Shown in pieces: positions 12,787 to 15,076 of a stretch of 32,000 nucleotides of DNA (positions are counted from its first letter, which is position 1; every line of letters begins with the position of its first letter). The translations under genes and the position numbers were made by a program. The stretch spans positions 10,504 through 42,503 of the forward strand of contig PAQF01000013.1 in assembly GCA_002709695.1 (NCBI GenBank), given 5' to 3'. The notes beneath the pieces were generated by a model. It did no database searches, was not told the origin of the DNA, and worked only from the letters and a program-made list of their open reading frames with translations. Source of the stretch: Candidatus Poribacteria bacterium. Its GTDB lineage: Bacteria; Poribacteria; WGA-4E; UBA9662.

Positions 12787-13908
12787 CTAATCTCTGTAAA
12801 CTCGAGGGACACGCTTACTGATCCCAGTTAGGATTTCGTAAGTAATTGTCCCTACTTTTTTTGCTATCTGCTCGGCATCAATCCGACAATTTCCTTGACA
12901 TCCGATGAGGACAACTTCATCACCAATGTGAACTGAACTATCAGCTTCGAAAACCGAGACATCCATACATACCTGTCCAATTATTCTACGAAACTTCCCG
13001 CCAATCAATGCTAAACCAGTATTCGAAAGCAGCCTCGAGTATCCATCTGCATACCCTATTCTAGCTGTGGCAATGTGGATTGGTCTATCAGCTTTATAAG
13101 TAAAGCCATAACTGACTCCCTCACCAATACCAAGCTTTCCTGTCGAGATAACTCGAGTTTTCCATTCTAGGACAGATTGAAGTGGTAAAAAATCCTGAGT
13201 TTCTAATAATGGATTGAGACCAAATAGAGTTAAACCAATGCGTACAGCATCAAAATGAGTGTCTTTGCGTTTTAACATCGCAGAACTATTAGCAGCGTGA
13301 ATGATGTTAGGAAGAAGATCTAGTTTACCTGATTTTTCGATAACTGAATTAAATAAGTGAAGCTGTTGGTCCAATTCAGTATCAACAGCCTGATCTGCTG
13401 TTGCAAAATGAGTAAAGATTCCTTCAGTTATAATACCAGGCAGCGTATTTAGCCATCGCAGAAAATTCACCGCTTGGCTGGTCCGAATACCATCACGGTT
13501 CATACCAGTATTTATGTTAACATGAATACTTATGTTTTGATCTTTTCGCTGAGCAATTTTGGAAAGTGCTTTTGGTAACTCAGGTTCCGATACTGTCAGT
13601 GTGATGTTTTGTATAACCGCTTTTTCAATCAGGTGAGGAAGTATATTGTAAAGAATGAGGATCGGCTGATGAATCTCTGCTTGACGAAGTTCAAAAGCTT
13701 CATCAGCAGTAGCCACCGCAAACATGGTTACGTCATCAGCTAAGATCCGAGCAACAGGACCAACACCATGACCATAGGCATCAGCTTTAAGAACCGCAAT
13801 AATTTTGGCTGGATGAGTATAAGACTTAATCGCTTTTGCGTTAGCTTTGATCGAGGATAGGTTGACCTCCGCGAAAGCTTCCATTTCGCTAGTCGGCAGC
13901 ATCCTCAA
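12787..13908 (-). CDS. alr: Alanine racemase
   Basis: PLP-lysine motif AVLKADAYGHG and family-typical length and C-terminus. The start is ambiguous (M1 13908, M3, or MEAF at 13884, which would remove the overlap with the upstream gene). Confidence 0.85.
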   Translation of the reverse strand: MRMLPTSEMEAFAEVNLSSIKANAKAIKSYTHPAKIIAVLKADAYGHGVGPVARILADDVTMFAVATADEAFELRQAEIHQPILILYNILPHLIEKAVIQNITLTVSEPELPKALSKIAQRKDQNISIHVNINTGMNRDGIRTSQAVNFLRWLNTLPGIITEGIFTHFATADQAVDTELDQQLHLFNSVIEKSGKLDLLPNIIHAANSSAMLKRKDTHFDAVRIGLTLFGLNPLLETQDFLPLQSVLEWKTRVISTGKLGIGEGVSYGFTYKADRPIHIATARIGYADGYSRLLSNTGLALIGGKFRRIIGQVCMDVSVFEADSSVHIGDEVVLIGCQGNCRIDAEQIAKKVGTITYEILTGISKRVPRVYRD

Positions 13909-15076
13909 CAGAATGATTCATGTCAGCATAAGCCTCATAATCAGGCAAGAGCTCCTCAATCGTTGGATGTGGCTGCCCCACAGGCCAATTATCGCTGCGA
14001 TTGACCTTGAACTCTCGAAATCGCATAGCTAAAGAATCATAGGCAAGCAATCGACCAATTAAGGGATTACCGATATCCAGCAGAATCTTGACTGCTTCTG
14101 TCGCCATCATAACACCAATCACGCCTGGGAGCACGCCCAGAACTCCGGCTTCGTTTCAGCCCGGCACCATGCCTGGTGGAGGTGGTATGGGGAACATACA
14201 TCGGTAACAAGGTCCTTGAGTAGGATCAAAGACCGTTAGTTGCCCTTCAAATTGAAAAATACTCCCGTGGACAACCGTTTTGTTCAATAGAACAGCAGCA
14301 TCATTTATTAAATAACGGGTGGCAAAATTGTCTGTGCCATCCAGAATAAGATCATACTGTTCAAAAATATCCAGCACGTTGCTTTCATTCAGTCTCAACG
14401 CGTGGGGAACCACGTTAATATCCGGATTCATTGATTTGATAGTCTCTACTGAAGACTGTACCTTAGACGTATCAACATCATCAGTATGGTGAAGTATCTG
14501 ACGCTGAAGATTGCTTAGGTCAACAACATCTGAATCAACAATGCCAATTGTACCCACACCAGTAGCGGCCAAATACACTGCTGCAGGAGACCCAAGTCCT
14601 CCTGCTCCAGTCAAAAGCACTTTTGAATTCAATAACTTAGCCTGACCTTCTTCACCAACTTCTTGTAACATGAAATGACGGCTATATCTTTCAAGCTGGT
14701 CTGGTGTCATCTGCATTGGCTTGTCGACTTGATTACCAACATTTGTCCATGCTCGGAACCCACCGGCCATAGAACTCGTGTCCGTGTATCCCATTTGCTT
14801 CAAGACTTGAGCAGCAAGGAGCGACCGAAACCCTCCCGCGCAGTAAACGACAATAGGTTTATCAGGCTCAGTTACATAGTCTTCTATCTCAAACTCAAGC
14901 ATTCCACGACTAACATAGGTCGCTGACGGAATGTAACCTGCGCGATATTCATCGTTATCTCGCACATCAAGCAGAATAAAGTCCTGATCAGTATCAAGCA
15001 TCTGCTCCACGTCACTGACTGTGACCTCTGGTATCTCTTTCCGCGCTTCTGCTATAAATTCCTGCGACGACTTCAT
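13889..15076 (-). CDS. Rhodanese-ThiF/MoeB (MoeZ-like E1 adenylyl/sulfurtransferase), probable selenoprotein with UGA(Sec) at 14158..14156
   Basis: The 306-aa and 81-aa track ORFs are in the same frame and separated by a single TGA. Read-through gives PPPPGMVPG-U-NEAGVLGVLPGVIG..ATEAVKILL, matching PPPG.VPSCAE.GVLG..PG.IG..A.EA.K.L of MoeZ/MoeB. N-terminal rhodanese loop VVYCAGGFRS. Nucleotide-binding GAGGLGSPAAVYLAATGVG. Confidence 0.7.
14123..14143 (-). promoter_or_regulatory. SECIS-like hairpin 3' of the in-frame UGA
   Basis: mRNA CUGGG-CGUGCU-CCCAG (plus 14125-14140). It is extendable by U.G and G-C pairs with one bulged U. It starts 12-15 nt after the UGA, and the apical loop contains GU. 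Confidence 0.5.

What the first reader, a model, noticed from the sequence alone, without database searches (positions are those of the whole stretch)
13889..15076. In-frame TGA on the catalytic-cysteine column of a rhodanese-ThiF/MoeB enzyme: probable selenoprotein split in two by the ORF track
The 306-aa ORF (15076..14156) and the 81-aa ORF (14134..13889) are in the same frame (15076-14134 = 942 = 3x314). The only interruption is one TGA (plus-strand tca 14156..14158). Read-through gives ...FPIPPPPGMVPG-[UGA]-NEAGVLGVLPGVIGVMMATEAVKILLDIGNPLIGRLL.YD... As I remember it, MoeZ/MoeB/ThiF-type E1-like enzymes read PPPG.VPSCAE.GVLG..PG.IG...A.EA.K.L here. That puts the UGA exactly where the conserved Cys used in persulfide/acyl-disulfide chemistry sits. 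The seven codons between the TGA and the ATG of the 81-aa ORF already encode conserved family residues (NEAGVLG), which is not expected if the downstream piece were an independent gene. A G/C-rich hairpin with a GU-containing apical loop starts 12-15 nt after the UGA (14123..14143), as in bacterial SECIS elements. I recall MoeB-like selenoproteins being predicted in marine metagenome selenoproteome surveys, but I cannot verify that here.
Basis: partly seen in the sequence, partly recalled or inferred. Interest (0 to 1): 0.85.

Follow-up and report, generated by a model that had tools for sequence, protein, structure and literature searches.

The report
Selenocysteine-containing rhodanese-MoeB enzyme gene
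Two adjacent reading frames are really one gene for a sulfur-carrier-activating enzyme whose catalytic cysteine is replaced by selenocysteine (encoded by UGA); this kind of MoeB selenoprotein has been known from ocean metagenomes since 2005, so it is a correct call but a further member of a known family, and public databases annotate it as truncated.

Summary
Window 13889..15076 (minus strand) is one 395-codon gene with a single in-frame TGA at codon 307 (14156..14158). It encodes an N-terminal rhodanese domain fused to a ThiF/MoeB adenylyltransferase (NCBIfam NF006444, full length).

- **Cys column.** The TGA aligns with an invariant Cys in 12 full-length homologues. That Cys corresponds to E. 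coli ThiF Cys184, MoeB Cys187 and Uba4 Cys202, the crossover-loop catalytic cysteine.
- **Conservation.** The TGA is present in all 12 Poribacteria loci examined, and 118 further metagenome contigs carry it at the same column. The 88 downstream codons are under purifying selection (dN/dS 0.05-0.21).
- **SECIS.** A 6-bp hairpin (14124..14141) with a G-U-containing loop follows the UGA. Hairpins arise easily by chance from this peptide, so its presence proves little. However, synonymous sites are locked to keep the stem: CCA is 87% of Pro317 codons against 4% elsewhere in the same genes.
- **Not shown.** No selA, selB, selC or selD gene could be found in the DNA accessible here.
- **Novelty.** MoeB selenoproteins with Sec at this column were published in 2005. 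Those have the opposite domain order.

Verdict: a new member of a known kind, of modest interest.

The parts
13889..15076 (-). Complete read-through coding sequence: 395 codons plus a TAG stop, encoding a rhodanese-ThiF/MoeB selenoprotein. The public record (MBB14379.1) annotates only the first 306 codons.
   Evidence: NCBIfam NF006444 scores 519 bits (cutoff 449), covering profile positions 3-382 of 387.
14156..14158 (-). In-frame UGA, codon 307, the predicted selenocysteine. It sits on the crossover-loop catalytic Cys column.
   Evidence: invariant Cys in 12 full-length homologues; equals ThiF C184, MoeB C187 and Uba4 C202. TGA conserved in 12 Poribacteria loci and 118 metagenome contigs.
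14124..14141 (-). Putative bacterial SECIS core hairpin. The 5' strand UCUGGG is at 14141..14136, the apical loop CGUGCU at 14135..14130, and the 3' strand CCCAGG at 14129..14124. The stem starts 14 nt after the UGA and the loop starts 20 nt after it.
   Evidence: it contains the longest invariant nucleotide run of the gene; 114 of 115 Sec forms have an equivalent hairpin, with register-coupled codons. CCA/CCG only at Pro317. Caveat: a hairpin here is common by chance.
14741..15019 (-). N-terminal rhodanese domain. The active-site loop C79-AGGFRS is at 14822..14842.
   Evidence: PF00581, E 4.2e-19. Cys79 is invariant; coordinates.
13991..14686 (-). ThiF/MoeB adenylation domain, which spans the UGA. 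It contains the ATP-binding motif GAGGLGS (14588..14608) and the first zinc-ligand pair CYRC (14198..14209).
   Evidence: PF00899, residues 131-362..
13973..13990 (-). Degenerate second zinc-ligand motif. It reads NWPVGQ where homologues have DCPxCG, so both cysteines are lost in this clade.
   Evidence: 108 of 109 other Sec forms keep the CxxC.
15084..15089 (-). Shine-Dalgarno-like AAGGTG, 7 nt upstream of the ATG. This is an inference from the sequence only.
   Evidence: read directly from the sequence. Not tested further.

Best explanation
Window 13889..15076 (minus strand) is a single gene of an uncultivated marine Candidatus Poribacteria bacterium. It encodes a 395-residue E1-like sulfur-carrier-protein adenylyltransferase/sulfurtransferase.

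Shown here:
- The protein has an N-terminal rhodanese domain (persulfide-carrying Cys79) fused to a ThiF/MoeB adenylation domain.
- Codon 307 is UGA, and it occupies the crossover-loop catalytic cysteine position.
- The sequence downstream of the UGA is translated.

Inferred:
- The UGA is decoded as selenocysteine by SelB and Sec-tRNA, recruited by the hairpin 14-31 nt downstream.
- By analogy with Uba4, ThiF and MoeZ, the enzyme adenylates the C-terminal glycine of a ThiS/MoaD/CysO-type carrier.
- Sec307 then attacks the acyl-adenylate, or exchanges with an acyl-persulfide, to give a selenoester or acyl-selenosulfide intermediate.
- The rhodanese persulfide resolves that intermediate to the carrier thiocarboxylate.
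- Sec would be a better nucleophile and leaving group than Cys at this step.
For: **Frame and domains.** establish the frame and the domains, and one search gives full-length membership of NF006444.

**Cys column.** The UGA falls on the invariant Cys column. That column equals ThiF C184, MoeB C187 and Uba4 C202. Published roles are thioester formation for Uba4 C202 (PMC7527816) and acyl-disulfide formation for ThiF C184 (PMC12596934).

**Translation past the UGA.** Downstream dN/dS is 0.05-0.21 while dS is 0.4-1.7. Codons 308-313 show only synonymous changes.

**TGA conservation.** It is present in two Poribacteria clades (72-93% amino-acid identity) and in two GTDB species representatives. 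The listed full-length members of clusters of 100 and 81 proteins all end at residue 306. A further 118 of 120 metagenome hits are genuine Sec forms.

**RNA-level constraint.**
- The longest invariant nucleotide run of the gene coincides with the hairpin.
- Leu313 is CTG in 115 of 115 unique Sec forms.
- The Pro317 and Gly318 codons switch together with the last base of codon 316, which keeps a 6-bp stem.
- Pro317 is CCA in 58 of 67 genes and CCG in 9 of 67, against 4% CCA and 35% CCC elsewhere in the same genes.
- Cys forms vary freely at these sites.

**No reassignment.** TGA is a normal stop for 6 of 28 window ORFs.

**Function.** Other Sec-form loci place the gene next to ThiS (GG terminus), a CysM-like PLP enzyme and a JAB protease.

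**Precedent.** The MoeB selenoprotein family is published with Sec at this column. Selenoproteins have also been reported in the phylum Poribacteria (PMC13582414).
Against: - No selA, selB, selD or tRNA-Sec was found in the window, in 33 related loci, or in about 839 kb of fetched DNA.
- The single-sequence fold is not better than shuffles (z = +0.8).
- Synonymous resampling of the same peptide gives a comparable hairpin 36% of the time with the window's codon usage and 77% of the time in GC-rich relatives.
- Two of the 5 Cys forms can fold similarly.
- No sulfur-carrier gene lies near the gene in the window, so the cognate carrier and pathway are unknown.
- This clade has lost two of the four zinc ligands that were reported as essential in E. 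coli MoeB (my recollection of Leimkuhler et al. 2001, not checked here).
- No second selenoprotein gene was seen in the accessible DNA.
Confidence: 0.85

Rival explanations
1. The UGA is recoded, but to cysteine or another standard amino acid rather than selenocysteine. One route would be a SelB-dependent tRNA-Cys with a UCA anticodon, as reported in some bacteria. Another would be near-cognate suppression.
For: Every line of evidence here shows read-through and RNA-level constraint. None of it identifies the inserted residue. No Sec machinery was found.
Against: The family is catalogued as a selenoprotein family with bacterial SECIS elements. The column is the nucleophilic Cys, which is the typical Sec/Cys pair position. 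Cys-recoding systems are rare (from my own knowledge, not tested here). Trp or Gly at an invariant catalytic Cys would be inactive.
Confidence: 0.05
2. The gene is split. The UGA terminates a 306-residue protein, and the 81-residue C-terminal piece is translated separately from the GTG at 14134. The two chains then assemble.
For: A GGAG lies 8 nt upstream of the GTG in the window clade (sequence lines). Gene callers annotate two ORFs.
Against: The six codons between the UGA and the GTG (NEAGVL) are conserved at the amino-acid level, with only synonymous changes. The GGAG is not conserved in other Sec-form clades (GGTG, GGCG). The break falls exactly on the catalytic Cys column in more than 130 independent sequences, which a split would not explain. 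A split would also delete the catalytic residue.
Confidence: 0.03
3. The gene is a pseudogene or a truly truncated product. The UGA is a disabling nonsense mutation and the downstream frame is decaying.
For: Public annotation ends the protein at residue 306. The window clade has lost the second CxxC zinc motif, and downstream dN/dS is somewhat higher than upstream (0.12 vs 0.037).
Against: The downstream frame stays open for 85-88 codons in every locus and is under strong purifying selection, although synonymous sites are near saturation. No further stops or frameshifts were seen in the 12 Poribacteria loci. The same TGA is present in distant clades.
Confidence: 0.02
4. The TGA is a sequencing or assembly error for TGC or TGT.
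For: None beyond the prior possibility for any single contig.
Against: An identical TGA is found in independent assemblies from ENA, JGI, NCBI and Logan and in 118 other metagenome contigs.
Confidence: 0.005

Closest known systems
MoeB selenoprotein family of marine metagenomes (Zhang, Fomenko & Gladyshev 2005, Sargasso Sea, 11 sequences; GOS 2008, 19 sequences; listed in the 2022 and 2026 reviews)
   Same: - Sec is at exactly the same column (LVPSu.V.GVLGVLPG against MVPGuNEAGVLGVLPG).
- It has the same ThiF/MoeB adenylation domain.
- It has the same apical RNA element, GG-CGUGCU-CC, at the same distance from the UGA.
   Different: - All 11 published Sargasso sequences have the rhodanese domain C-terminal to ThiF (MoeZ type). 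The window gene has it N-terminal (PRK08762 type).
- The window clade lacks the second CxxC zinc motif, which the published sequences keep (DPECALCG).
- The host here is assigned to Candidatus Poribacteria.
NCBIfam NF006444 / PRK08762 'molybdopterin-synthase adenylyltransferase MoeB' (rhodanese-ThiF fusion)
   Same: Full-length match above the curated cutoff (519 bits against 449). Same domain order. About 55-62% identity to the aligned Cys-containing members.
   Different: - The model is a plain equivalog and is not flagged as a selenoprotein, so pipelines truncate the Sec forms.
- The window protein has Sec in place of Cys and lacks two zinc ligands.
- The name 'MoeB' is an annotation transfer. 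The neighbourhoods of other Sec forms point to ThiS/CysO-type Cys or homocysteine pathways rather than molybdopterin.
Uba4/MOCS3 and bacterial MoeZ (ThiF-rhodanese adenylyltransferase/sulfurtransferases)
   Same: A two-domain logic of adenylation plus rhodanese persulfide. The crossover-loop Cys (CtUba4 C202) aligns with the UGA. The best PDB match is Uba4 (E 1e-57).
   Different: - The domain order is reversed.
- It has Sec instead of Cys.
- It is a bacterial enzyme with an unknown carrier.
- The thioester-then-persulfide mechanism is transferred by analogy, not shown here.
E. coli ThiF and MoeB
   Same: The same adenylation fold and CYRC motif. ThiF C184 (acyl-disulfide with ThiS) and MoeB C187 align with the UGA.
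   Different: They have no rhodanese domain. They have all four zinc cysteines and a Cys, not a Sec.

Membership tests
Bacterial selenoprotein gene | An in-frame UGA that aligns with Cys in homologues (a Sec/Cys pair) | tested here: met
   invariant Cys in 12 full-length homologues. TGC/TGT in the Cys-form DNA.
Bacterial selenoprotein gene | UGA conserved among orthologues, with the downstream frame conserved and under purifying selection | tested here: met
   12 Poribacteria loci and 118 metagenome contigs. Downstream dN/dS is 0.05-0.21.
Bacterial selenoprotein gene | A bacterial SECIS: a stem-loop immediately downstream of the UGA with a small apical loop that contains a guanosine (criterion as worded in PMC1088965) | tested here: met
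   A 6-bp stem starts 14 nt after the UGA, with loop CGUGCU. Synonymous sites are constrained to keep the stem. Caveat: hairpin presence alone is expected by chance in 36-77% of resamplings, and the single-sequence z-score is +0.8.
Bacterial selenoprotein gene | Sec-insertion machinery (selA, selB, selC, selD) in the same genome | not testable with these tools
   None was found in the window, the related loci, or 839 kb of fetched DNA. Whole MAGs could not be read. Indirect support only: Sec-containing hydrogenases have been reported in the phylum Poribacteria.
Bacterial selenoprotein gene | Direct demonstration of selenium in the protein | not testable with these tools
   Needs 75Se labelling or mass spectrometry.
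ThiF/MoeB E1-like adenylyltransferase (PF00899; NF006444) | HMM match above the curated threshold over the full length | tested here: met
   PF00899 at 278 bits (cutoff 28.1). NF006444 at 519 bits (cutoff 449).
ThiF/MoeB E1-like adenylyltransferase (PF00899; NF006444) | Glycine-rich nucleotide-binding motif (GxGxxG) | tested here: met
   GAGGLGS at residues 157-163, invariant in alignment A1.
ThiF/MoeB E1-like adenylyltransferase (PF00899; NF006444) | Four-cysteine structural zinc site (two CxxC motifs) | tested here: not met
   The first CxxC (CYRC) is present. The second is replaced by NWPVGQ in the window clade only. The sister clade and 108 of 109 other Sec forms keep it.
Rhodanese sulfurtransferase domain (PF00581) | HMM match and the active-site Cys in a CxxxxR loop | tested here: met
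   E 4.2e-19. C79-AGGF-R84 is invariant. Present in 70 of 70 long Sec forms.
Published MoeB selenoprotein family (Sargasso Sea 2005) | Sec at the crossover-loop Cys column of a ThiF/MoeB domain | tested here: met
   the published sequences read ...LVPSuAVAGVLGVLPG...
Published MoeB selenoprotein family (Sargasso Sea 2005) | Domain architecture of the published members (ThiF followed by a C-terminal rhodanese) | tested here: not met
   The window gene has the rhodanese domain N-terminal. The published full-length sequences carry it C-terminal.

The most novel reading that the evidence does not exclude
In this pelagic Poribacteria clade the enzyme may be more than a Sec-for-Cys swap. It has lost the second CxxC of the structural zinc site yet keeps the CYRC pair 14 residues upstream of Sec307. 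The orphan cysteine pair and the selenol might therefore form a new selenenyl-sulfide or altered metal site, which would make this a mechanistically rewired E1-like sulfur (or selenium) relay enzyme. More modestly, the N-terminal-rhodanese (PRK08762-type) Sec subfamily is abundant in soil, wetland and marine metagenomes, and it may not have been explicitly described. Annotation pipelines systematically truncate it.
Probability: 0.1. Interest if true: 0.5.

Novelty: new member of a known kind. Interest (0 to 1): 0.3.

Why it matters
The practical point is annotation. This gene and hundreds of orthologues are deposited as 306-residue truncated 'MoeB' proteins (for example MBB14379.1). The curated NCBIfam model they match is not flagged as a selenoprotein, so the catalytic residue and the last 88 residues are missing from public protein sets.

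Biologically, the finding adds Candidatus Poribacteria and the N-terminal-rhodanese architecture to the MoeB selenoprotein family.

It does not open a new question. The role of Sec at the E1 crossover-loop cysteine remains biochemically untested, and this family would be a good system in which to test it.

Tried and rejected
1. **Single-sequence folding** of 14090..14165 gave z = +0.8 and is not informative. A 52-nt fold even picks an alternative structure.
2. **MFE comparison** of Sec forms with Cys forms does not discriminate. Cys forms fold as stably because they are GC-rich.
3. **Hairpin presence as evidence** was rejected after synonymous resampling gave 36% (window codon usage) and 77% (relatives) by chance. 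It was replaced by tests of synonymous-site constraint.
4. **Rfam and ARAGORN** on the window and on 33 loci found no tRNA-Sec and no RNA family hit.
5. **Pfam on all window ORFs** found no sel genes.
6. **A scan for a second selenoprotein gene** in the window and related loci found none. The other TGA-bridged frames are shadows of real genes or lie upstream of true starts.
7. **phmmer with E. coli SelA, SelB and SelD** against 839 kb of fetched DNA gave one lead in L040. It turned out to be a generic AIR-synthase-fold protein, below every NCBIfam cutoff.
8. **Walking beyond the window ends** by exact-protein look-up failed, because the products are not on record.
9. **A search for a ThiS/MoaD-like GG-terminal ORF** in the window found none.
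10. **The literature on Pelagiporibacteria** says nothing about selenium.
11. **Genome-wide UGA reassignment** was rejected, because 6 of 28 window ORFs end in TGA.
12. **Structure prediction** was considered and not run. The tool returns no coordinates, so Sec-to-CYRC or Sec-to-Cys79 distances could not have been measured.
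Full report
**Observation.** On the minus strand, a 306-codon ORF (15076..14156) and an 81-codon ORF (14134..13889) share one frame. 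They are separated only by a TGA at 14156..14158. Read-through gives a 395-residue product ending at TAG.

**What it encodes.** With Cys substituted at position 307, Pfam finds a rhodanese domain (residues 20-112) and a ThiF domain (residues 131-362, E 4.7e-83) that runs straight across the TGA. NCBIfam places the protein, full length, in NF006444/PRK08762, the rhodanese-MoeB fusion family. The score is 519 bits against a cutoff of 449, covering profile positions 3-382 of 387. The motifs present are:
- the rhodanese active-site loop C79-AGGFRS;
- the nucleotide-binding motif GAGGLGS;
- the first zinc-ligand pair CYRC.

**The UGA column.** In an alignment with 12 full-length homologues (55-60% identity in that alignment), position 307 is an invariant Cys in the context VPSC.EAGVLGVLPG. 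Alignment to solved structures puts it on E. coli MoeB Cys187 and ThiF Cys184, counted from the printed alignments. It also falls on the Uba4 cysteine that was mutated to Lys in the crystallised constructs. Uba4 C202 is described as the crossover-loop catalytic cysteine that forms the thioester with Urm1, before attack by the rhodanese persulfide (PMC7527816). ThiF Cys184, also in the crossover loop, forms the acyl-disulfide with ThiS (PMC12596934).

**Is the TGA real and read through?**
- *Truncated calls.* The closest database proteins are all called at exactly 306 residues: a 91-93% identity tier named 'MoeB [Candidatus Poribacteria bacterium]' and a 72% tier. Homologues at about 60% identity are full length.
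- *Public record.* The window's own product is MBB14379.1. Two 90%-identity clusters hold 100 and 81 members, drawn from many independent assemblies. Every listed member that is not a fragment is 306 residues long.
- *DNA of relatives.* DNA from nine related loci, plus two GTDB species-representative Poribacteria MAGs, shows TGA at codon 307 in every case. An open frame of 85-88 codons follows it.
- *Selection.* Between lineages whose synonymous sites are near saturation (dS 0.4-1.7), the downstream region has dN/dS of 0.05-0.21. The codons directly after the TGA show only synonymous changes.
- *No reassignment.* TGA ends 6 of 28 ordinary ORFs in the window, so the codon is not reassigned genome-wide.

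These results exclude a base-call error, a recent pseudogene and a truncated product. They make a two-polypeptide split very unlikely.

**How widespread is it?** I scanned metagenome contigs with a DNA pattern that constrains only the amino-acid context around the TGA (PPxxxPxUxExGVLG). Of those hits, 118 are genuine in-frame TGAs at this column in MoeB-like genes. They come from soil, wetland, freshwater and marine samples and fall into several sequence clades. All 70 with enough upstream sequence carry the N-terminal rhodanese loop.

**The SECIS question.** The hairpin is UCUGGG/CGUGCU/CCCAGG at 14141..14124. Its stem starts 14 nt after the UGA and its loop starts 20 nt after it. The loop has G and U at positions 2-3, which fits the published description of bacterial SECIS elements as having a small apical loop that contains a guanosine.

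Its mere presence is not evidence:
- The single-sequence fold is no better than shuffles.
- Cys-form genes fold as stably over the same region, and 2 of 5 form a similar hairpin.
- Resampling synonymous codons for the same peptide gives a comparable hairpin in 36% of trials (window codon usage) to 77% of trials (GC-rich relatives). The LGV[LV]PG peptide is simply prone to forming CUGGG...CCNGG.

The evidence that counts is constraint at synonymous sites:
1. The longest fully invariant nucleotide run in the whole gene, across five divergent Poribacteria sequences, is CTGGGCGTGCTCCC. That is the hairpin itself, while only 17% of third codon positions are invariant overall.
2. The window uses the rare codons CTG-GGC-GTG-CTC there. 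Their joint probability under local codon usage is about 2.6e-4.
3. Among 115 unique Sec-form sequences, Leu313 is CTG in all 115. In 114 of them a perfect 5-8 bp hairpin with a 6-7 nt loop starts 12-15 nt after the UGA.
4. The 3' strand shifts register in a coupled way. When codon 316 ends in C, Pro317 is CCA or CCG (88 of 89) and the third base of Gly318 is free. Otherwise Pro317 is CCC (26 of 26) and Gly318 is GGG (27 of 27). Either way a 6-bp stem is kept. Fisher's test gives 6e-25, not corrected for relatedness.
5. In 67 type-A genes of mean GC 67%, Pro317 is CCA in 58 and CCG in 9. These are the only two Pro codons that pair with the stem's U. Elsewhere in the same genes CCA is 4% and CCC 35% of Pro codons.
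6. Five Cys-form genes vary freely at these sites.

I therefore regard the hairpin as a functional RNA element, most plausibly a SECIS.

**What could not be shown.** No selA, selB, selD or tRNA-Sec was found in any of the following:
- the window;
- 33 related loci;
- about 839 kb of fetched DNA, searched with the E. coli Sel proteins.

The single lead from that last search was a generic AIR-synthase-fold protein. No second selenoprotein gene was seen. Indirect support comes from a 2026 report of Sec-containing hydrogenases in the phylum Poribacteria. The identity of the inserted residue therefore rests on family precedent and on the Sec/Cys-pair logic.

**Function.** The window offers no neighbourhood clue. 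The flanking genes are alanine racemase, a cupin and TANGO2, and there is no GG-terminal small ORF. In other Sec-form clades the gene sits beside a ThiS-family carrier ending in GG, a CysM-like PLP enzyme, a Prok-JAB protease, a ThiS-NIL fusion and an Rrf2 regulator. That is the arrangement of protein-thiocarboxylate-dependent cysteine or homocysteine synthesis. The best-supported role is therefore adenylation and thiocarboxylation of a ThiS/CysO-type carrier. Sec307 would act as the crossover-loop nucleophile and Cys79 of the rhodanese domain as the persulfide donor. The selenoester or acyl-selenosulfide step is an inference by analogy with Uba4 and ThiF.

**Comparison with what is known.** MoeB is a published selenoprotein family:
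- 11 genes in the Sargasso Sea study of 2005;
- 19 genes in the GOS study;
- listed in the 2022 and 2026 reviews without a motif or mechanism.

The 2005 supplement gives the sequences. All 11 read ...LVPSu[AS]V[AS]GVLGVLPG..., so Sec is at the same column. They share the apical GG-CGUGCU-CC element. However, where the published sequences extend far enough past the ThiF domain, the rhodanese domain lies C-terminal to it (MoeZ type). The window gene has the opposite order.

The window gene is therefore a further member of a known selenoprotein family, in a different architectural subfamily and a different phylum. NF006444 is a plain equivalog rather than a selenoprotein 'exception' model. That may explain why such genes are deposited as truncated proteins.

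**A side observation.** The window's clade, alone among the Sec and Cys forms examined, has lost the second CxxC of the zinc site. It reads NWPVGQ or DWLIGQ in place of DCPxCG, while CYRC is retained. Its sister clade at 72% identity keeps DCVIC. The region is still under purifying selection. I could not assess what this means for zinc binding or for the role of Sec.

**Verdict.**
- *Confidence.* About 0.85 that this is a genuine UGA-recoded selenoprotein gene.
- *Novelty.* A new member of a known kind.
- *Interest.* About 0.3. This is a correct and tidy example with annotation consequences, but it would not surprise a selenoprotein specialist.

Noticed in passing
window 13973-13990 (minus strand); compare L005 and L008: The window's Poribacteria clade has lost both cysteines of the second zinc-binding CxxC of the ThiF/MoeB fold. 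It reads NWPVGQ (DWLIGQ in relatives) where homologues have DCPxCG. The first pair, CYRC at 14198-14209, is kept. The sister clade at 72% identity keeps DCVIC, as do 108 of 109 other Sec forms.
   Followed up: partly
window 15077-15322, against L001 9129-9884, L002 5931-6695 and L009 485-1240: Close relatives carry a PhyH (phytanoyl-CoA dioxygenase) gene between the cupin gene and the MoeB gene. The window has only a 246-nt intergenic gap there, so this is a gene-content difference within otherwise conserved synteny.
   Followed up: no
window 10328-12782 and 16608-17447: Four paralogous genes of about 250-280 residues, each with a Laminin_G_3 (concanavalin-like lectin) domain, flank the locus. 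The array is conserved in relatives, with some copies shortened.
   Followed up: no
window 7701-10139: An 812-residue protein that fuses an N-terminal nucleotidyl-transferase-like region to a C-terminal ARMT1-like damage-control phosphatase domain. In L004 the same gene is called as two pieces.
   Followed up: no
window 19099-20476: A CotH-kinase-like ORF (19099-20040, matching only positions 2-220 of the 322-position profile) is overlapped in another frame by a 208-residue ORF (19850-20476) with no Pfam hit. This could be a frameshift or an over-extended start.
   Followed up: no
L047 4937-6580; also L022 and L040 (neighbours of the Sec-MoeB gene): In other Sec-form clades the gene is directly followed by a ThiS-family carrier ending in GG, a CysM-like PLP enzyme and a Prok-JAB protease. 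L022 has a ThiS-NIL fusion, and L040 has a JAB protease and an Rrf2 regulator. This suggests thiocarboxylate-dependent Cys or homocysteine synthesis rather than molybdopterin synthesis.
   Followed up: partly
public record MBB14379.1 and relatives HCK12932.1, HIO07349.1, HIA66241.1; NCBIfam NF006444: The gene and its orthologues are deposited as 306-residue 'MoeB' proteins that end at the UGA. The matching NCBIfam model is a plain equivalog, not a selenoprotein 'exception' model.
   Followed up: partly
Supplement of PMC1088965 (for example AACY01471790, AACY01592709): The published Sargasso MoeB selenoproteins are MoeZ-type, with a C-terminal rhodanese. They share the apical GG-CGUGCU-CC element, but their Leu313 codon varies (CTA, CTT, TTG, CTG). 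This sometimes leaves an internal mismatch, compensated by a lower stem (CAGUU...GGACUG).
   Followed up: partly
L134 and L137 (Cys-form genes), codons equivalent to 312-318: Some Cys-form genes can form a similar hairpin downstream of the TGC/TGT codon (for example CUGGGC-GUGCU-GCCCGG). The peptide predisposes to this structure, which may have eased repeated Cys/Sec switching at this site.
   Followed up: no
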